Origin: a virus
Taxonomy: Duplodnaviria > Heunggongvirae > Uroviricota > Caudoviricetes
Virus record (IMG/VR): IMGVR_UViG_3300028956_000044
DNA: 9,055 nucleotides
Direction: 5' to 3' (one strand)
Below are positions 85-6,554 of the stretch, piece after piece. Position 1 is the stretch's first letter, and every line of letters starts with the position of its first letter. The position numbers were made by a program, and so were the translations under genes. The notes beneath the pieces were generated by a model. The model saw only the letters and a program-made list of their open reading frames with translations, ran no database searches and was not told the DNA's origin.

Positions 85-1050
85 TTACCCCCTGAAGCCC
101 GGCGGAATTTCGGTATCCGGCTCAGAAATATGATTCACACAACGCTGTACAGACGAACGCCCCAGGCGGATAACCAGTTCATCCCATTTTTCGCGAAGCT
201 TTAACGGACTCATGATATTTTTTACCCAGAATGGATCCCGCTGCACCCGACCAAACATTTCACAAATTTGTCTGTGAGTTCTGCCATCCAGCATCCGCAT
301 TGTGCGCACGTCGTTGGCCCATGCGGTCCAGTTGGGTTCTTTCGGTCGCGAAATCTCGCCATCATCGCTGGCGGCCTGCTCGTAAAGACTCACGATTCGC
401 CCCCAGATCCACTGCGCACACGCCAAATCTTCCTGGCTGCCCCACTGGCGTTTTTTCGCACTGAACACAACCGCGTCAGGGTGTCGGGTTAAAAAATCCT
501 GTTCAACCGTCTGCGGGTCCGGTTGCGAAGCTTCCGGACGAGAAGTCTTTTTATTCTCTGTAGTAATCTCTGTTGTATTCTCTGTAAGATCATCAGGCCA
601 TTTTGACCAGATGACATTGAGTCGTTTTGAACCAATGGAGCGTTTCATTTTGACCTCTTCCATCGTGTCATTTTGACCTGATGGAGCGGCGCATTTTAAA
701 CCGATGGATTCGCTCAATTTGCCACCATCTAAAAGCTCGCTCCCGTAGTTGATCGTGTAGAAATTGGTCATATCGCGCTTTGATTTATTGAGCTTTTCAC
801 AACGCAAAAGCCCCAGCGTTTTCAGACTTGCAAACGCGCGCTTTAACGTTGACTCTGACCAGAATGGGAACTGTTCCAGCCATTGTTCCGTTGTGTTATA
901 AATCCAGCGAACACCATCACATTCCATGCCGGAGTTGGTATCTCTCAACCAGTAGTGCAGTTGTTGCAAAACAATGGCTTCGTTTAAGCCAATTTTCATT
1001 GCCAGCTGCGTGTTTATAACCAGTGGGCGTTCAGCAAAAAGAAGACTCAT
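85..1050 (-). CDS. phage replication initiation / replisome-organizer-like protein (lambda O position)
   Basis: Long minus-strand ORF (track 85..1104 opens with TTG; first ATG is complement of 1048-1050, giving 321 aa). N-terminal segment MSLLFAERPLVINTQLAMKIGLNEAIVLQQLHYWL resembles the winged-helix N-domain of phage replication initiators as I recall them. Third gene downstream of the Cro-like gene, as in lambdoid early-right operons. Family assignment is from memory, not alignment. Confidence 0.6.
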   Translation of the reverse strand: MSLLFAERPLVINTQLAMKIGLNEAIVLQQLHYWLRDTNSGMECDGVRWIYNTTEQWLEQFPFWSESTLKRAFASLKTLGLLRCEKLNKSKRDMTNFYTINYGSELLDGGKLSESIGLKCAAPSGQNDTMEEVKMKRSIGSKRLNVIWSKWPDDLTENTTEITTENKKTSRPEASQPDPQTVEQDFLTRHPDAVVFSAKKRQWGSQEDLACAQWIWGRIVSLYEQAASDDGEISRPKEPNWTAWANDVRTMRMLDGRTHRQICEMFGRVQRDPFWVKNIMSPLKLREKWDELVIRLGRSSVQRCVNHISEPDTEIPPGFRG

Positions 1051-1552
1051 AATTCCATCCAGCTTTTTGTTGGTATTGCTGTCGATACGCAAGCTTGAAA
1101 GCAATTGCTTTTTCTATAAGTTCGTCAGTTTCACGATCTACAACGGCAGGATCTGCAAAAAGCAGTCCGGATTCCACCACATCGCCATATTCTTTATTTA
1201 ACCCGGCGATCATGTACGTAATACTTTTTCCATCACTGATCTCACGATACAACCTGAAATCACTAATCCGGATAGCCTCCATAATCGCAGGCACTAGCGC
1301 CGTGAACTTTTCACGCTTATCCCTGGTGTCGATAGCCTTCCAGCGTTCGAATATCTTCACTCGATTAACGCCAAGCGCTCGCTGATCAACCGCGCCACCT
1401 TCATCTGTGACACGCTGAACATCGATGTTCGGGCGCTCTTTCAAAGCCCAGAATGCTTCAGTGATTAATATCGTCGCCTGCTCCTGTGTCATTCCTGGTC
1501 GACATATCCAGGCATCCAGAGCCTCACGAGCCTGTTCAGGAGTGATTTTCAT
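1031..1552 (-). CDS. 173-aa early protein in CII/YdaT position, function unknown
   Basis: ATG start (complement of 1550-1552) overlaps the dicC-like stop by 17 nt; its stop overlaps the next gene start by 20 nt (translational coupling layout). Sits immediately downstream of the Cro-like gene. No motif I can name with confidence. Confidence 0.6.
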   Translation of the reverse strand: MKITPEQAREALDAWICRPGMTQEQATILITEAFWALKERPNIDVQRVTDEGGAVDQRALGVNRVKIFERWKAIDTRDKREKFTALVPAIMEAIRISDFRLYREISDGKSITYMIAGLNKEYGDVVESGLLFADPAVVDRETDELIEKAIAFKLAYRQQYQQKAGWNYESSFC

Positions 1553-1766
1553 TGTTCAACCGCCCCGCCCGCTTCGTCTTACGATATTCATCATAAACTT
1601 TGGGATCATACTGAAGCTCCCCGCCAGATGCCTCCTGTAGACGCATCGCGCGACCTTCGGGAACTAAATCCCCTTTCCAGCTATAAAGCGAAGCCAAACG
1701 AATACCTGCTGCTTGTGCAAGTTTTGTTTTTGAACCGAAATACAAAAGAGCGTCAGTTTTAAGCAT
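1536..1766 (-). CDS. dicC: Cro-like regulator DicC
   Basis: 76-aa ORF divergent from the repressor gene, ATG at complement of 1764-1766. The length and divergent position match E. coli Qin DicC (76 aa) as I recall it. Promoter-like -35 TTGACT / 17 nt / -10 TATTTT on the minus strand (complement of 1799-1827) precedes it. Confidence 0.8.
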   Translation of the reverse strand: MLKTDALLYFGSKTKLAQAAGIRLASLYSWKGDLVPEGRAMRLQEASGGELQYDPKVYDEYRKTKRAGRLNNENHS

Positions 1767-1849: not shown

Positions 1850-2257
1850 ATGGAAACAAAAAATTTAACTATCGGCGAACGCATTAGGTATCGTCGGAAA
1901 AACCTCAAACACACCCAAAGGTCTCTTGCTAAAGCCCTGAAAATCTCCCATGTGTCTGTATCACAATGGGAACGGGATGATAGTGAACCTACAGGGAAGA
2001 ACCTTTTTGCCCTCAGCAAAGTATTGCAATGCTCACCAACATGGATTCTATTTGGCGATGAAGACAAGCAACCAACACCACCTGTTGAGAAGCCAGTTGC
2101 CTTATCCCCCAAAGAACTAGAGCTCCTTGAGCTGTTTAATGCACTGCCAGAATCAGAACAGGATACCCAGCTCGCCGAAATGCGAGCTCGAGTAAAAAAC
2201 TTCAATAAACTCTTTGAAGAATTACTAAAAGCCCGTCAGCGGACAAATAAAAGATAA
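1850..2257 (+). CDS. dicA: XRE-family HTH repressor DicA (cI-like immunity repressor)
   Basis: 135-aa ORF with an N-terminal HTH segment (LKHTQRSLAKALKISHVSVSQWERD) typical of XRE/cI-type repressors. The length equals the 135 aa I recall for E. coli DicA, and it is divergent from the Cro-like gene with palindromic operators between. Confidence 0.85.
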   Translation: METKNLTIGERIRYRRKNLKHTQRSLAKALKISHVSVSQWERDDSEPTGKNLFALSKVLQCSPTWILFGDEDKQPTPPVEKPVALSPKELELLELFNALPESEQDTQLAEMRARVKNFNKLFEELLKARQRTNKR

Positions 2258-2317
2258 CATCATCAATGAGTTATCTTTTACCACATCAATCATGTTAGCC
2301 ATAACATACAAAATCAC

Positions 2318-2346
2318 TTGACCTATATGTTAGCCATGGCTAATCT
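2318..2346 (+). promoter_or_regulatory. putative DicA-repressed promoter of the rightward dicB operon, with operator palindrome TTAGCCATGGCTAA (2330-2343)
   Basis: TTGACC (2318-2323), 17-nt spacer, TAATCT (2341-2346; weak -10). A perfect 14-bp palindrome at 2330-2343 overlaps the spacer and -10, and a partial copy ATGTTAGCCAT lies at 2292-2302. Exact -10 assignment is uncertain. Confidence 0.5.
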
Positions 2347-2427
2347 TATTTACATCAACACACCGCACGGTGTTCTCAGCAAACAGTTCCGCTACCCCAG
2401 CGTTAAGGGGAAACAGAGGATTTCTCA

Positions 2428-2784
2428 GTGGGCGAAGTCAAACATCAGAATGGAAGGCGTCCAGGGATCAGCAAAGAAACAGCGATGGCGCTTTATATTG
2501 ATATCAGCGCCATTGCCGGACAGGTAAGAATTATCAGAGCGGTAACTAAGCGGTATGCGCCTTTACTTCAGAAAGTCTCTGGTGAGTGCACCGAAGATAT
2601 TGTCAACGATTTCGTCATCAAACTGCGAGGACTCATCTTCAGTTACAAGGTGACCACAATTTTTGCAGATGGCTCCCGCGAAACTGTCAGAGCCCTGCGG
2701 TTTAAAGGATGTGTCAAAGACTTCGCCACCACATTCTGGGCAAGAAAACTTGATTGTATTCATAACCAATTTCCTCTCGAGTAA
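2428..2784 (+). CDS. 118-aa ORF at the position of ydfA/ydfB in the dicB operon
   Basis: GTG start 7 nt after AGAGGA (2415-2420); first gene after the putative operon promoter. In K-12 I recall two small genes here (ydfA 51 aa, ydfB 42 aa); this window has one continuous frame. Its 3' two-thirds overlaps an antisense zinc-ribbon ORF, so the true extent is uncertain. Confidence 0.45.
   Translation: MGEVKHQNGRRPGISKETAMALYIDISAIAGQVRIIRAVTKRYAPLLQKVSGECTEDIVNDFVIKLRGLIFSYKVTTIFADGSRETVRALRFKGCVKDFATTFWARKLDCIHNQFPLE
2563..2763 (-). CDS. 66-aa Cys4 zinc-ribbon small protein, antisense to the ydfA/ydfB-equivalent region
   Basis: Minus-strand ORF MNTIKFSCPECGGEVFDTSFKPQGSDSFAGAICKNCGHLVTEDESSQFDDEIVDNIFGALTRDFLK with ATG at complement of 2761-2763, preceded by GAGAGG (complement of 2774-2779). 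Shows CPEC-x17-CKNC, a canonical zinc-ribbon spacing, followed by an acidic tail. Could still be a chance antisense frame. Confidence 0.35.
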   Translation of the reverse strand: MNTIKFSCPECGGEVFDTSFKPQGSDSFAGAICKNCGHLVTEDESSQFDDEIVDNIFGALTRDFLK

Positions 2785-2855
2785 CAGACCCCTCAGAGGA
2801 TACCACCTCGCCTGACGTGGTTAAAAGCAGGCAACGCTAACCACAAGGAGCCGAC

Positions 2856-3074
2856 ATGCAGAAACGAGAACCCGTCATCATCGCGCCAGACTATACCGAT
2901 GATGAACTTTATGAGTGGATGCGCCAGAAAATTAATGCAGCGCAGGATTTGAAATGGGCCAATGAAGCCAGGGCTAAGCAGGCTGAAAATCTGTCCGCTC
3001 TGGAGCAGGATATCACCAGGCTGGAAAAAGCAGCGGCATTAAGCATTGCCAGAATGATTACATACCCGCGTTAA
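2856..3074 (+). CDS. ydfC: YdfC-like small protein (72 aa), dicB operon
   Basis: ATG 5 nt after AAGGAG (2842-2847). The 72-aa length and position, about 340 bp upstream of DicF, match K-12 ydfC as I recall it; the protein sequence itself was not recognised. Confidence 0.6.
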   Translation: MQKREPVIIAPDYTDDELYEWMRQKINAAQDLKWANEARAKQAENLSALEQDITRLEKAAALSIARMITYPR

Positions 3075-3415: not shown

Positions 3416-3473
3416 TTTCTGGTGACGTTTGGCGGTATCAGTTTTACTCCGTGACTGCTCTGCCGCCCTTTTT
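3416..3473 (+). ncRNA. dicF: DicF small regulatory RNA (ftsZ-targeting sRNA of Qin-type prophages)
   Basis: The 53 nt at 3416-3468 match, to my recollection base for base, the E. coli DicF sequence. They end in a GC-rich hairpin plus a TTTTT run at 3469-3473. Position between ydfC and dicB is syntenic with K-12 Qin. Confidence 0.85.
3431..3473 (+). terminator. intrinsic terminator forming the DicF 3' end
   Basis: GGCGG (3431-3435) pairs with CCGCC (3463-3467), with an inner CAG/CTG pair, followed by CTTTTT. Confidence 0.75.
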
Positions 3474-3642: not shown

Positions 3643-3831
3643 ATGAAAACGTTATTACCAAACGTTAATACGTCTGAAGGTTGTTTTGAAATTGGTGTCA
3701 CTATCAGTAATCCTGTATTTACTGAAGATGCCATTAACAAAAGAAAACACGAACGGGAGTTATTAAATAAAGTATGCATTGTTTCAATGCTGGCCCGTTT
3801 ACGTCTGATGCCAAAAGGATGTGCACAATGA
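3643..3831 (+). CDS. dicB: cell-division inhibitor DicB (62 aa)
   Basis: ATG at 3643 preceded by GAGGG (3631-3635). The 62-aa product MKTLLPNVNTSEGCFEIGVTISNPVF matches my recollection of DicB, and it sits about 170 nt downstream of DicF as in K-12. The track's 97-aa version is an in-frame GTG extension with no RBS. Confidence 0.85.
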   Translation: MKTLLPNVNTSEGCFEIGVTISNPVFTEDAINKRKHERELLNKVCIVSMLARLRLMPKGCAQ

Positions 3832-4112: not shown

Positions 4113-6554
4113 ATGAGCACTGATAAAGAAGAATTTGCACTATATTGCGAAGCAAAAAATGACAAAGTAAGAAAACGCCTAGGAATTAAAGGTGGTTTTT
4201 ACTGGACTACAGCAAAAAAATTATCTGTTGCAATCTCCCGCTGCATTACCGCAATGGATGACAACGATTATGATGAAGACGACTTTAAAAAACCCGTCCG
4301 CGTCAATTTGCCCGTTGTTGACGACCTTCCGCCAGAAGGCGTGTTTGATACTGAATTCTGCAACCGCTATGAAAAAGGCGGGAAAGATGGCATCACAATG
4401 ACATTTATCGGCCCTTCCCCCTCTGTTCAGGACAAACCAGCCAGCACTGACAATACCAACATCAACGGCGAAGCCATGACTGAGATTGAGGAGAGCATGC
4501 TTCTGCCTGTCTCCGGTCAGGAACTGCCCATTCGTTGGCTTGCTCAACACGGCAGCGAAAAACCAGTAACGCACGTTTCACGCGACGAACTCCAGGCATT
4601 ACACATTGCACGGGCTGAAGAACTACCGGCTGTTACTGCCCTGGCTATTTCGCATAAAACCAGTCTGCTCGACTCGCTGGAGATTCGCGACCTCCACAAA
4701 CTGGTTCGTGACACTGACAAAGTTTTCCCTAATCCTGGTAATTCAGACCTGGGACTAATAACTGCTTTTTTCGAAGCATACCTAGACGCTGACTACACTG
4801 ATCGGGGTCTGCTGACAAAAGAGTGGATGAAAGGAAATCGTGTTTCACGCATCACCCGCACGGCTTCCGGTGCTAATGCTGGCGGTGGGAACAAAACCGA
4901 TCGCAATCCGAATTTAGTACACACCCTCGACACACTGGATGTGGAGATTGCAGCAGCCACACTTCCGATGGATTTTAATATTTATGAAATTCCGGGCAGC
5001 GTTTATCGTCGCGCAAAAGAAGTAGTCCTGAACAAAGAAAGTCCGTTCAAAGAATGGTCCGCAGCACTTCGTGCAACCCCGGGTATTCTGGACTATTCCC
5101 GCGCCGCTATTTTTGCACTTATCCGAAGCGCACACCCTGAATTTTATCACTACCCGGGACGCCTTCAGGGGTATATCAACGCCTATTTGACGGAAACTGA
5201 TCACGAGAACCCCAGCAAGGAAACTCTCACAGCTGCCCGGCATACGCCGGAAAAAGATATCCTGGAAGAAATTAACCGCGAGGTGGTTACTGAGCGTGAA
5301 ACAGAAGAAGAAAAACCACAACCATCTGACGCAATGGCAGGTGAACAGGCAACAACTGAAACAATGGAACCGGATACAACTGAACATGGCCAGAACGCGC
5401 AGTCGCTGGATGCTCAGTCGCAGGTGAGTTCCGCTAACCAAGTAAAAGTCACCGCTGACGAAGTAAACAAAATTATGCAGGCAGCCAATATCAGCCAGCC
5501 TGACGCCGATAAGTTACTTGCTGTATCGCGTGGTGAATTTGTTGAGGGGATTAGCGACCCTAATGATCCGAAATGGGTCAAAGGGATCCAGACTCGCGAT
5601 TCTGTGAACCAGAACCAGCATGAATCGGAACGGAACGACCAAAAAGCGGAACAAAACAGCCCAAATGCGTTACAAAACGAGCCAGAAACGAAACAATCCG
5701 AACCAGTGGCGCAACAGGAAGTGGAAAAAGTCTGCACCGCCTGCGGTCAGACCGGCGGCGGCAACTGCCCTGATTGTGGCGCGGTGATGGGCGACGCAAC
5801 ATACCAGGAAACATTCGATGAAGAGTATCAGGTTGAAGTTCAGGAAGATGATCCGGAGGAAATGGAAGGCGCTGAACATCCACACAAGGAGAACACTGGC
5901 GGCAATCAGCATCACGATAGCGATAATGAAACTGGCGAGACGGCAGATCACTCAATTAAGGTGAACGGTCATCAAGAAATCACATCCACCAGCAGGACGT
6001 GTGACCATCTAATGATCGACCTTGAAACCATGGGAAAAAATCCTGATGCCCCGATCATCTCAATAGGTGCAATATTTTTCGATCCGCAAACCGGAGATAT
6101 GGGACCGGAATTTAGTAAGACTATCGATCTGGAAACTGCTGGCGGAGTCATTGATCGGGACACCATTAAATGGTGGCTTAAGCAATCACGCGAAGCGCAA
6201 TCTGCCATTATGACCGATGAAATCCCGTTAGATGATGCACTGTTACAATTGCGGGAATTTATCGACGAAAACTCCGGTGAATTTTTTGTTCAGGTCTGGG
6301 GAAATGGAGCCAACTTCGACAACACGATTTTGCGCCGTTCATACGAACGGCAGGGGATCCCCTGCCCGTGGCGTTACTACAACGATCGCGATGTACGCAC
6401 AATCGTTGAGCTGGGGAAAGCCATAGACTTCGATGCCAGAACGGCTATTCCATTCGAAGGTGAGCGCCATAATGCACTTGATGACGCCCGTTACCAGGCA
6501 AAATACGTTTCAGTTATCTGGCAAAAACTGATCCCGAGTCAGGCTGATTCTTAA
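4113..6554 (+). CDS. ydfE: 813-aa RecE-N-terminal-like protein with C-terminal DEDDh 3'-5' exonuclease domain (full-length YdfE-type)
   Basis: ATG at 4113 with GAGG upstream. Residues ~1-360 resemble the N-terminal region of Rac RecE as I recall it. Residues ~370-625 are acidic and low-complexity, with a C-x2-C-x7-C-x2-C knuckle (nt 5733-5777). Residues 630-813 show DEDDh motifs: MIDLETMG (D636/E638, nt 6018-6026), [10 protein letters not shown] (D736, nt 6318-6320), HNALDDARY (H786, nt 6468-6470). Gene symbol is by synteny with K-12 ydfE, where I recall only a truncated remnant. Confidence 0.85.

What the first reader, a model, noticed from the sequence alone, without database searches (positions are those of the whole stretch)
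2563..2763. Antisense 66-aa Cys4 zinc-ribbon ORF inside the DicA-repressed operon
The minus strand encodes MNTIKFSCPECGG...CKNCGH with CxxC-x17-CxxC spacing, an ATG start and a GAGAGG RBS, followed by an acidic tail (DESSQFDDEIVDNIF). It is nested antisense within the ydfA/ydfB-equivalent ORF, and no minus-strand gene is annotated here in K-12 to my knowledge. It could be an unannotated counter-transcribed regulator or anti-defence-type small zinc-ribbon protein, or a chance frame.
Basis: seen in the sequence. Interest (0 to 1): 0.55.

Follow-up and report, generated by a model that had tools for sequence, protein, structure and literature searches.

The report
Zinc-ribbon gene nested antisense in prophage operon
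The minus-strand ORF is a real small zinc-ribbon gene that NCBI already annotates (ECs_2282 family), and the plus-strand early-operon ORF that contains it also looks protein-coding, so this may be a rare nested antisense gene pair.

Summary
The ORF exists as described at 2563-2763(-): 66 aa, ATG start, GAGAGG ribosome-binding site, acidic tail. The cysteine spacing is CxxC-x21-CxxC, not x17.

It is not a chance frame. It scores 57 bits against NCBIfam NF047912 (cutoff 37), and PGAP annotates it on this strand. Substitutions across 38-48 haplotypes are strongly biased to synonymous in its frame (omega about 0.25-0.3, p down to 1e-15). About 80 clusters of stand-alone ~66-aa relatives keep all four cysteines.

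It lies in a ~420-bp portable cassette that replaces ydfA-ydfB of K-12, so K-12 has nothing to annotate here. The cassette carries a predicted minus-strand promoter and a conserved 3' hairpin, and it always faces the phage early operon, as sieB does.

The plus-strand ORF (99/118 aa, phrog_21318) is unrelated to YdfA/YdfB but also looks coding. It is open in every lineage examined, four diverged loci (three independent upstream contexts) have ribosome-binding site plus ATG, and its 24 non-overlapped codons show coding periodicity (p=7e-8 outside E. coli).

A Zn-frame nonsense allele (E14*) occurs in 516 complete E. coli genomes.

Function is unknown. My inference is a lysogeny-expressed small binding protein that early transcription shuts off.

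The parts
2563..2763 (-). Zn gene: 66-aa Cys4 zinc-ribbon protein (C8, C11, C33, C36) with an acidic C-terminal helix; ECs_2282 family.
   Evidence: ORF and translation. NCBIfam NF047912 scores 57.3 bits against a cutoff of 37. PGAP annotates it on this strand. Synonymous bias in this frame: S=140, N=143 against 27% expected, p=1e-15. Omega 0.24-0.29.
2772..2778 (-). Shine-Dalgarno sequence GAGAGGA, 8 nt before the Zn ATG.
   Evidence: Sequence. A purine-rich GAAGGA/AGGAGG sits at the same place in the other lineages.
2797..2826 (-). Predicted Zn promoter: -35 TTTTAA (2821-2826), 18-nt spacer, extended -10 TGgTATCCT (2797-2805). The spacer holds an inverted repeat, ACCAC-N10-GTGGT (2802-2821).
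   Evidence: This block is conserved in almost all lineages aligned (the L003/L004/L021 clade keeps only the -10 hexamer). Homology ends about 75 nt upstream of the Zn ATG. Coordinates. It is a consensus-based inference and was not picked up by the simple scanner.
2472..2513 (-). Zn 3' hairpin (ATGGCGCT 2506-2513 paired with AGCGCCAT 2485-2492) followed by the U-rich run UGUUUCUUUG (2472-2481); probable terminator of the Zn transcript.
   Evidence: RNAalifold keeps the stem in 8 of 8 lineages with compensatory changes. Five lineages have G.U pairs that would be A.C mismatches on the other strand. Also seen in the single-sequence fold.
2428..2784 (+). Operon-sense ORF containing the Zn gene: 118 aa from GTG 2428 (SD AGAGGA at 2415-2420), or 99 aa from ATG 2485. 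It is phrog_21318 and RefSeq WP_001240336.1, and is codon-for-codon opposite the Zn frame.
   Evidence: Open in every lineage examined. SD+ATG in four other loci, three independent upstream contexts. Coding periodicity in the 24 non-overlapped codons: S=42, N=28, p=7e-8 in the non-E. coli types and p=0.065 in the E. coli type. AlphaFold2 pLDDT 67.9 with 8 sequences.
2414..2835 (.). Portable cassette that replaces ydfA-ydfB of K-12 Qin.
   Evidence: The window and K-12 are near-identical up to about 2413 and again from 2856. The conserved block shared with Citrobacter, Klebsiella and Enterobacter prophages starts near the plus-ORF start and ends about 75 nt upstream of the Zn ATG.
2292..2346 (+). 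Early (dicB-operon) promoter: -35 TTGACC (2318-2323), -10 TAATCT (2341-2346), with two palindromes (2292-2307 and 2330-2343) as presumed DicA operators.
   Evidence: Sequence. It aligns with the K-12 region between dicA and ydfA with only a few mismatches. The operator assignment rests on established knowledge of dicA/dicB and was not tested here.
2632..2658 (.). Near-invariant 27-nt block (Zn codons 36-44, CGH-x-VTEDE; opposite plus-ORF residues L-I/V-F-S-Y-x-V-T-T). Synonymous sites are frozen here.
   Evidence: The codon table over 13 diverged sequences shows only 2 variable positions in 27.

Best explanation
The minus-strand ORF is a genuine gene. It encodes a 66-aa protein made of a Cys4 zinc ribbon and an acidic C-terminal helix, and it is a member of the ECs_2282 family.

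It sits in a ~420-bp mobile cassette (about 2414-2835). That cassette occupies the slot between the DicA-controlled early promoter and ydfC, where K-12 has ydfA-ydfB. The cassette carries minus-strand signals of its own: a predicted extended -10 promoter, a ribosome-binding site and a conserved 3' hairpin. The gene is therefore transcribed head-on against the early operon.

Most likely mode of action (inferred, not shown): the gene is expressed while the prophage is repressed. When the early promoter fires, convergent transcription and translation across it shut it off. This is the arrangement known for sieB. The product is too small and too acidic to be an enzyme or a typical DNA binder, so it most likely acts by binding a partner protein. 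An exclusion, defence or immunity-linked role is a guess.

The plus-strand ORF that contains it is not YdfA or YdfB, but it also appears to be maintained and translated as the first early gene. The locus is therefore probably a true nested antisense gene pair. The plus frame probably arose by overprinting on the older zinc-ribbon gene.
For: Shown, that the gene is real:
- NCBIfam NF047912 scores 57.3 bits against a cutoff of 37, and PGAP annotates this strand.
- Window vs L017: Zn frame dN/dS 0.08, plus frame 1.8.
- Events on a minimum spanning tree of haplotypes: Zn frame S=140, N=143 against 27% synonymous expected, p=1e-15. For the E. coli type alone, S=62, N=37, p=6e-12.
- An overlap-aware test gives omega Zn 0.24-0.29, p=1e-7 to 3e-15.
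- 81 cluster representatives match at E<=1e-3 among 1.8e9 proteins. Most are 63-75 aa stand-alone proteins; all 29 that I aligned keep the four cysteines at the same spacing.

Shown, the cassette and its orientation:
- Homology with K-12 breaks at the cassette edges.
- In every locus for which flanking genes were read, across five genera, the Zn gene opposes the early operon next to cI/cro. In L011 it follows sieB on the same strand.
- The hairpin shows compensatory changes and strand-specific G.U pairs. The promoter block is conserved.
- In Rac, sieB has the same counter-orientation beside the ydfA/ydfB homologues ydaF/ydaG.

Shown, that the plus ORF is maintained:
- It is open in all lineages examined, including those with 45% Zn identity.
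- Given the Zn protein and local codon usage, the chance of that is 0.03-0.19 per lineage.
- SD+ATG sits at the homologous N-terminus in four loci (L003, L004, L005, L010; three independent upstream contexts, since L003 and L004 are close relatives) whose upstream DNA is otherwise unrelated.
- The non-overlapped 24 codons give S=42, N=28 against 29% expected, p=7e-8.
- At Zn-synonymous sites in the non-E. coli types, changes that are also plus-synonymous are about 3-fold over-represented (dSN/dSS 0.33); dNN/dNS is 0.38, p=5e-5.
- Plus-ORF relatives down to 36% identity keep a 93-104 aa length and a conserved N-terminal helix.

Inferred only: expression in lysogens, shut-off by early transcription, and a protein-binding role.
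Against: - I have no transcription or translation data. A search of EHEC transcription-start and Ribo-seq supplements found nothing at this locus.
- The promoter is a consensus guess, its -35 is weak, and the scanner did not report it.
- The nonsense allele E14* is present in 516 complete E. coli genomes, against 865 with the intact 48-mer. The protein is therefore dispensable in a large EHEC lineage.
- In the E. coli-type cassette, which is the window's own type, the plus ORF shows no significant constraint: omega 0.87 in the overlap and p=0.065 in the non-overlapped part. It also lacks a ribosome-binding site at the conserved ATG.
- The dNN/dNS test can be biased, because second-position changes are harsher on the Zn protein too.
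- The structure models are weak: Zn pLDDT 58.6, plus ORF 67.9. No fold or PDB relative gives a function.
Confidence: 0.6

Rival explanations
1. Only the zinc-ribbon gene codes. The plus-strand ORF is a non-functional shadow frame that stays open because it lies exactly opposite a gene with few TTA/CTA/TCA codons, and gene callers pick it up by mistake.
For: - In the E. coli-type cassette the plus frame evolves as if unconstrained: S=19, N=83 in the overlap, and omega 0.87.
- Most conserved plus-frame residues mirror conserved Zn residues.
- A distant Zn homologue in an unrelated context also has an open opposite frame (L128).
- The plus ORF has no family, fold or PDB relative.
- PGAP does not call it when the Zn gene is intact.
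Against: - The frame stays open 24-35 codons beyond the Zn stop in every lineage.
- That non-overlapped part shows codon periodicity, p=7e-8, and protein-level conservation down to 36% identity.
- Ribosome-binding site plus ATG occurs at the homologous start in four loci with unrelated upstream DNA.
- Chance openness is 0.03-0.19 per lineage with local codon usage.
- The ORF always runs with the early operon.
Confidence: 0.2
2. The plus ORF is translated, but only the act of translation matters. Ribosomes reading through the antisense insert would protect the early transcript from Rho-dependent termination, so that ydfC-dicF-dicB are still expressed. The plus-ORF product would have no function.
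For: - Openness and start signals are conserved, while amino-acid constraint in the overlap is weak or absent in the E. coli type.
- About 430 nt (2428-2855) would otherwise be untranslated leader between the plus-ORF start and ydfC.
Against: - The non-overlapped N-terminal codons are conserved at amino-acid level, not just kept open.
- Zn-synonymous sites opposite hydrophobic plus-ORF residues (W, Y, F, L, V) are frozen.
- AlphaFold2 gives a compact alpha-alpha-beta-beta-alpha model with core pLDDT 70-81 from only 8 sequences.
Confidence: 0.12
3. The counter-transcript is what matters, not the protein. Convergent transcription from the cassette promoter, or the resulting antisense RNA, would dampen leaky early transcription of the toxic dicF/dicB genes. 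The zinc-ribbon protein would be secondary.
For: - Head-on orientation is found in every context examined.
- The promoter block and hairpin are conserved.
- A null protein allele, E14*, persists in 516 genomes with the rest of the cassette intact.
- Antisense RNAs such as lambda oop and P22 sas/sar are known in immunity regions (established knowledge).
Against: - Strong purifying selection acts on the protein sequence itself: omega about 0.25, with invariant cysteines.
- A broad family of stand-alone homologues exists outside this context.
Confidence: 0.06
4. The zinc-ribbon frame is a chance or shadow frame of a real plus-strand gene.
For: - Phage records and some RefSeq genomes annotate only the plus ORF.
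- The E14* stop is common.
Against: - Substitutions are overwhelmingly synonymous in the Zn frame and non-synonymous in the plus frame.
- All four cysteines are invariant across 29 aligned relatives down to about 27-30% identity.
- There are 81 homologous clusters of the same size, and the NCBIfam score is above its cutoff.
Confidence: 0.02

Closest known systems
NCBIfam NF047912, 'ECs_2282 family putative zinc-binding protein' (namesake: E. coli O157:H7 Sakai ECs_2282, NP_310309.2)
   Same: Full-length match above the curated cutoff, the same 66-aa length, four cysteines, and the same prophage position.
   Different: Nothing differs; the window protein is a member. The family has a name but no reported function, and I found no paper about it.
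sieB of lambda, P22 and Rac (superinfection exclusion gene)
   Same: A gene set against the direction of the early-left operon, close to the immunity region. In Rac it lies right beside the ydfA/ydfB homologues ydaF/ydaG. In L011 the Zn gene lies directly downstream of sieB on the same strand. That sieB is expressed from its own promoter in lysogens is established knowledge.
   Different: No sequence similarity: PF14163 is not among the Pfam hits. SieB is a ~160-190-aa protein without a zinc ribbon. No exclusion phenotype has been tested for the Zn protein.
Embedded antisense overlapping genes reported in EHEC (ano, asa and others; PMC5960689, PMC6294744, PMC9927249, bioRxiv 10.1101/2020.11.18.388249)
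   Same: One ORF is fully embedded antisense in another. The EDL933 copy of this locus appears in that preprint's Table S12, as an embedded ORF matching ECs_2282 residues 32-66.
   Different: Here the embedded gene is the older one with a wide family, and the longer host ORF is the clade-restricted one. The support here is comparative (both frames, many lineages), not expression data. The preprint lists the locus only in a BLAST table, without expression evidence.
PADLOC candidate PDC-M14A and phrog_4852
   Same: Their N-terminal ~50 residues resemble the zinc-ribbon module. 17 of 29 wider-family members hit PDC-M14A (best E 2e-7); the window protein scores E 0.0019. phrog_4852 scores E 1e-9 over profile columns 10-54 of 194.
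   Different: Those proteins are 150-190 aa with an extra C-terminal region that is absent here. PDC-M14 is only a candidate defence system, and I found no paper on it.
YdfA (DUF1391) and YdfB of K-12 Qin
   Same: The same slot: the first ORFs after the DicA-controlled promoter and before ydfC.
   Different: No similarity on either strand. They are two short co-directional genes with no antisense gene.
Elf1 / TFIIB-type zinc ribbons (PF05129, PF08271) and DUF5795
   Same: CxxC-about 21-CxxC ribbon knuckles. IMG names one relative cluster 'Elf1'.
   Different: All hits fall below the Pfam cutoffs. The best is DUF5795 at 23.4 bits against 27. The organisms and context differ.

Membership tests
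NCBIfam NF047912 (ECs_2282 family zinc-binding protein) | Whole-protein HMM score above the curated cutoff | tested here: met
   57.3 bits against a cutoff of 37, covering residues 4-59 of 66.
NCBIfam NF047912 (ECs_2282 family zinc-binding protein) | Four cysteines in two CxxC knuckles, and a length of about 66 aa | tested here: met
   C8, C11, C33 and C36 are invariant in all intact homologues, which are 66 aa long.
NCBIfam NF047912 (ECs_2282 family zinc-binding protein) | Actual zinc binding | not testable with these tools
   Inferred from the Cys4 pattern only.
Nested antisense protein-coding gene pair | Both ORFs intact across diverged homologues | tested here: met
   The plus frame is open in all lineages. 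The Zn frame is intact in most, with E14*, E44* and one frameshift as exceptions.
Nested antisense protein-coding gene pair | Purifying selection on the embedded (Zn) frame | tested here: met
   Omega 0.24-0.29, p down to 3e-15.
Nested antisense protein-coding gene pair | Purifying selection on the containing (plus) frame | tested here: inconclusive
   Non-E. coli types: non-overlapped codons p=7e-8, dNN/dNS 0.38 (p=5e-5), dSN/dSS 0.33. E. coli type, which is the window's own: p=0.065 and omega 0.87.
Nested antisense protein-coding gene pair | Transcription and translation of both strands | not testable with these tools
   Nothing found in the EHEC supplements that are held.
sieB-like lysogen-expressed counter-oriented prophage gene | Orientation opposite to the early operon, next to the immunity region | tested here: met
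   True of every locus whose flanking genes were read. Rac sieB for comparison.
sieB-like lysogen-expressed counter-oriented prophage gene | Own promoter and terminator | tested here: inconclusive
   An extended -10 block and a hairpin with covariation are conserved. The promoter is only a sequence prediction, and the scanner missed it.
sieB-like lysogen-expressed counter-oriented prophage gene | Homology to SieB (PF14163) | tested here: not met
   No PF14163 hit.
sieB-like lysogen-expressed counter-oriented prophage gene | Expression in lysogens and an exclusion phenotype | not testable with these tools
   Needs an experiment.
YdfA (DUF1391) / YdfB | Sequence similarity of the plus ORF to YdfA or YdfB | tested here: not met
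   No Pfam or NCBIfam hit. The DNA alignment with K-12 shows unrelated sequence between about 2414 and 2855.
PADLOC PDC-M14A (candidate defence protein) | Full-length profile match | tested here: not met
   Only profile positions 18-67 of 152 match, at E 0.0019 and 16.5 bits. The wider family matches the same part.
DksA/TraR C4 zinc-finger proteins (which an x17 spacing would suggest) | C-terminal CxxC-x17-CxxC finger and a Pfam zf-dskA_traR match | tested here: not met
   The spacing is x21, the ribbon is N-terminal, and no such Pfam hit appears.

The most novel reading that the evidence does not exclude
The cassette is a two-strand switch. One strand encodes an early-lytic protein (plus ORF) and the other a lysogeny-expressed zinc-ribbon protein, so their expression is mutually exclusive by head-on transcription. 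The plus gene was born by overprinting on the antisense strand of an older, widespread zinc-ribbon gene. The two products, or the two transcripts, act on the same decision, such as immunity, exclusion or control of dicF/dicB. The EHEC E14* allele would be a natural single-strand knockout.
Probability: 0.3. Interest if true: 0.75.

Novelty: new member of a known kind. Interest (0 to 1): 0.5.

Why it matters
1. Public annotation disagrees at this locus. PGAP calls the 66-aa minus gene when it is intact and the 99-aa plus ORF when it carries E14*. Phage records call only the 118-aa plus ORF. Both cannot be handled by pipelines that allow one gene per locus.

2. Well-supported nested antisense protein-coding pairs are rare in bacteria and phages. 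This one has many diverged natural copies, and a common natural stop allele that hits one strand only, so it is directly testable.

3. The cassette sits between the repressor-controlled promoter and dicF/dicB. Those genes affect cell division, phage resistance and, in EHEC, virulence regulation (established knowledge). Anything that modulates read-through here could matter for those traits.

4. It may be a clean case of gene birth by overprinting.

Tried and rejected
- YdfA/YdfB homology of the plus ORF: rejected.
- YdaE, the Rac zinc-binding protein, as a relative: no alignment.
- A second 66-aa ORF near the cassette in L005 as a paralogue: it has no cysteines and is unrelated.
- Genome-collection scan with the family alignment: only two spurious zinc-ribbon hits inside larger membrane proteins, L013 and L014.
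- The search for related loci with the broad alignment failed because no stretch was conserved enough. P0047 in viral contigs gave nothing. P0038 in metagenomes gave two soil contigs whose context says little: a large upstream ORF and a ~207-aa neighbour.
- PDB sequence search found nothing meaningful for either protein.
- Literature: no paper mentions ECs2282, the peptide sequences or PDC-M14. EHEC translatome and transcription-start supplements showed nothing at the locus, but the stored files are truncated.
- A 5'-UTR hairpin hiding the Zn ribosome-binding site: dropped, because its 5' arm overlaps the predicted -10 and would lie upstream of the transcript start.
- SSB-tail mimicry by the QFDDEIVDNIF motif: considered, then dropped. 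The motif is internal rather than C-terminal, and nothing supports the idea.
Full report
**What is in the window.**
The window is the early region of a Qin/DicA-type lambdoid prophage. Its genes, in order:
- an O-like replication gene (85-1104, minus strand) and a CII-like/YdaT gene (1031-1552, minus strand)
- dicC (1536-1766, minus strand) and dicA (1850-2257, plus strand)
- ydfC (2856-3074), DicF RNA (3417-3468) and dicB
- an exonuclease (4113-6554), xis and int

**The observation.**
- The ORF is as described: 2563-2763(-), ATG start, 66 aa, with GAGAGGA 8 nt upstream, 12 acidic and 5 basic residues.
- The cysteines are at positions 8, 11, 33 and 36, so the spacing is CxxC-x21-CxxC and not x17.
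- The ORF lies inside a plus-strand ORF, 2428-2784 from GTG or 2485-2784 from ATG. The two frames share the same triplets, so codon position 1 of one faces position 3 of the other.

**Already annotated, and why K-12 lacks it.**
- The peptide scores 57.3 bits against NCBIfam NF047912, 'ECs_2282 family putative zinc-binding protein', whose cutoff is 37.
- PGAP annotates it on this strand in RefSeq E. coli genomes.
- An alignment with K-12 shows near-identity from dicA through the promoter and leader up to about 2413, and again from the ydfC ATG. In between, K-12 has ydfA-ydfB and the window has unrelated DNA. K-12 therefore has no such gene because it carries a different cassette.
- The plus ORF has no Pfam or NCBIfam family. 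It is phrog_21318 (E 9e-67). That reflects how deposited phage genomes are annotated: those records call the 118-aa plus ORF and not the zinc-ribbon gene.

**Which strand codes? The zinc-ribbon frame.**
I collected the cassette from Citrobacter, Klebsiella and Enterobacter prophages (60-70% protein identity), from intermediate E. coli variants, and from 101 viral contigs.
- At intermediate divergence the Zn frame is clearly the constrained one. Window vs L017 has 21 differences: Zn dN/dS is 0.08 and plus-frame dN/dS is 1.8.
- I counted substitutions along a minimum spanning tree of 48 haplotypes. The Zn frame has 140 synonymous and 143 non-synonymous events, against 27% synonymous expected (p=1e-15). 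For the E. coli type alone the counts are 62 and 37 (p=6e-12).
- A test that classifies each change by its effect on both frames gives omega Zn of 0.24-0.29.
- A profile search of 1.8 billion representatives finds 81 clusters at E<=1e-3. Most are 63-75-aa stand-alone proteins. The 29 that I aligned share four invariant cysteines, the same spacing, a GAxCxxCGHxxTEDD core and a C-terminal helix.

The zinc-ribbon ORF is a real gene, and it is older and more widespread than this cassette.

**Which strand codes? The plus ORF is not a simple shadow.**
- It is open in every lineage examined, including the P0034 loci at 45% Zn identity. It always ends within a few codons of the Zn ATG and always extends 24-35 or more codons past the Zn stop.
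- With the codon usage of the window's own phage genes, the chance that the opposite frame is stop-free over the Zn gene is 0.03-0.19 per lineage.
- Four diverged loci (L003, L004, L005, L010) have a strong ribosome-binding site plus ATG at the homologous N-terminus, although their upstream DNA is unrelated. L003 and L004 are close relatives, so this is three independent contexts. The E. coli type instead uses AGAGGA-7 nt-GTG at 2428.
- The 72 nt outside the overlap show codon periodicity in the plus frame: 42 synonymous and 28 non-synonymous events against 29% expected, p=7e-8, in the non-E. coli types. In the E. coli type the counts are 24 and 34, p=0.065. The only other frame with signal shares the same wobble positions and contains stops.
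- At Zn-synonymous sites in the non-E. coli types, changes that are also synonymous in the plus frame are about three times over-represented. Zn codons 36-44 have frozen synonymous sites opposite plus-ORF residues L-I/V-F-S-Y-x-V-T-T.
- A profile search finds plus-ORF relatives down to 36% identity. All are 93-104 aa (a few are longer through N-terminal extensions) and have a conserved N-terminal helix. At the four positions opposite the Zn cysteines they carry only Ala or Thr, which is what conserved TGY codons on the other strand require. No plus-ORF relative without the Zn gene was found.
- AlphaFold2 with 8 sequences gives an alpha-alpha-beta-beta-alpha model with pLDDT 67.9. It has no informative fold match.

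Caveats: in the E. coli-type cassette the plus frame looks relaxed (omega 0.87), and the dNN/dNS test can be biased. I put the probability of true dual coding at roughly 0.5-0.65.

**Anatomy of the cassette.**

Minus strand:
- a conserved block with -35 TTTTAA (2821-2826), an 18-nt spacer holding the inverted repeat ACCAC-N10-GTGGT, and an extended -10 TGgTATCCT (2797-2805)
- the ribbon gene's ribbon-binding site, i.e. its Shine-Dalgarno sequence, then the gene
- a hairpin (2485-2513) followed by a U-rich run

Homology between lineages ends about 75 nt upstream of the Zn ATG on one side and near the plus-ORF start on the other. The hairpin is kept in 8 of 8 lineages with compensatory changes. 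Its G.U pairs exist only on the Zn-sense strand, which fits a terminator or 3' stabiliser of the Zn transcript.

Plus strand: the promoter TTGACC-17-TAATCT, with two palindromes (2292-2346), aligns with the K-12 region upstream of ydfA with only a few mismatches.

**Context.**
- In every locus whose flanking genes I read, the plus ORF runs with the early operon and the Zn gene runs against it, next to cI/cro. The cassette is usually on the pL side, and on the pR side in L003, L004 and L021.
- The same slot holds toxin-antitoxin pairs or an HSDR_N gene in some phages. In L011 the Zn gene follows sieB on the same strand.
- In Rac, sieB is likewise counter-oriented beside the ydfA/ydfB homologues ydaF/ydaG.

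From this I infer, without expression data, that the Zn gene is made in the repressed prophage and is silenced by head-on early transcription.

**Function.**
Function is unknown.
- The protein is small and acidic, so a partner-binding role is more likely than DNA binding or catalysis.
- The only lead is that 17 of 29 wider-family members resemble the N-terminal third of PADLOC candidate PDC-M14A (best E 2e-7; window protein E 0.0019), together with phrog_4852.
- Pfam hits are generic zinc ribbons below cutoff. No PDB relative was found.

**A natural knockout.**
- A GAA to TAA change at Zn codon 14 (F to L in the plus frame) is present in 18 of 118 viral loci.
- In complete genomes, 516 match the mutant 48-mer and 865 match the wild-type 48-mer. 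The mutant is mostly in O157:H7, O111 and O26. In these genomes PGAP annotates the 99-aa plus ORF instead.
- Apart from one frameshift that disrupts both frames, no stop or other disruption of the plus frame was seen.
It does not outweigh the selection seen elsewhere.

**Prior notice.**
No paper discusses the locus. Table S12 of a 2020 preprint on embedded antisense ORFs lists the EDL933 copy as matching ECs_2282 residues 32-66. That is a BLAST table only, with no expression evidence.

**Verdict.**
- The ORF is real and already annotated as a family of unknown function, so the claim that it is unannotated fails.
- The new element is comparative evidence that the ORF containing it is also maintained, which makes this a good candidate for a nested antisense gene pair in a portable prophage cassette.
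- Interest is moderate.

Noticed in passing
window 2722-2724 (Zn codon 14); L130 1632-1931; L024 and 17 other viral loci: A GAA to TAA nonsense allele (E14*) of the zinc-ribbon gene is common in EHEC lineages (516 complete genomes). It leaves the plus ORF intact (F to L), and PGAP then annotates the opposite strand (WP_001240336.1).
   Followed up: yes
window 3417-3468 (+) and about 3643-3831 (+): A canonical DicF sRNA (Rfam RF00039, 76.7 bits) and dicB lie downstream of ydfC. Anything that affects read-through of the cassette would affect these genes.
   Followed up: partly
window 2802-2821: The inverted repeat ACCAC-N10-GTGGT sits inside the spacer of the predicted Zn promoter. It is conserved in most lineages while its loop varies. 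It could be an operator or an RNA hairpin on the early transcript.
   Followed up: partly
window 2632-2658: A 27-nt block (Zn codons 36-44) is almost invariant at all three codon positions across sequences that otherwise differ by about 25-30%. I used it as an exact-match probe, which recovered 101 viral contigs.
   Followed up: partly
L019 2031-2509; L022 2057-2721; L010 5930-7084: The slot between the repressor gene and the cassette holds PaaA2-ParE, HigB-HigA or an HSDR_N-domain gene in different phages. It looks like a hot spot for accessory or defence genes.
   Followed up: no
L005 4995-5555 (-), L089: In the C. freundii-type cassette the plus frame stays open for 186 codons. It fuses with about 90 upstream codons that have an internal ribosome-binding site plus ATG at the conserved start.
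   Followed up: no
L129 123-341: A relative (P0035) sits next to an MFS transporter gene. It keeps the promoter-like block (GGTGGTATCCTGG...) but has a replaced C-terminus, and the opposite frame no longer resembles the plus ORF. It is probably a prophage-edge remnant.
   Followed up: partly
L133 3172-3660 (K-12 Rac): sieB in Rac is counter-oriented inside the early-left operon, directly beside ydaF/ydaG (the ydfA/ydfB homologues). This is the closest positional analogue of the zinc-ribbon gene.
   Followed up: partly
window 2485-2513: In the E. coli-type cassette the conserved plus-ORF ATG (2485) lies inside the perfect 8-bp stem of the Zn 3' hairpin and has no ribosome-binding site. This may be why this type starts at the upstream GTG (2428).
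   Followed up: no
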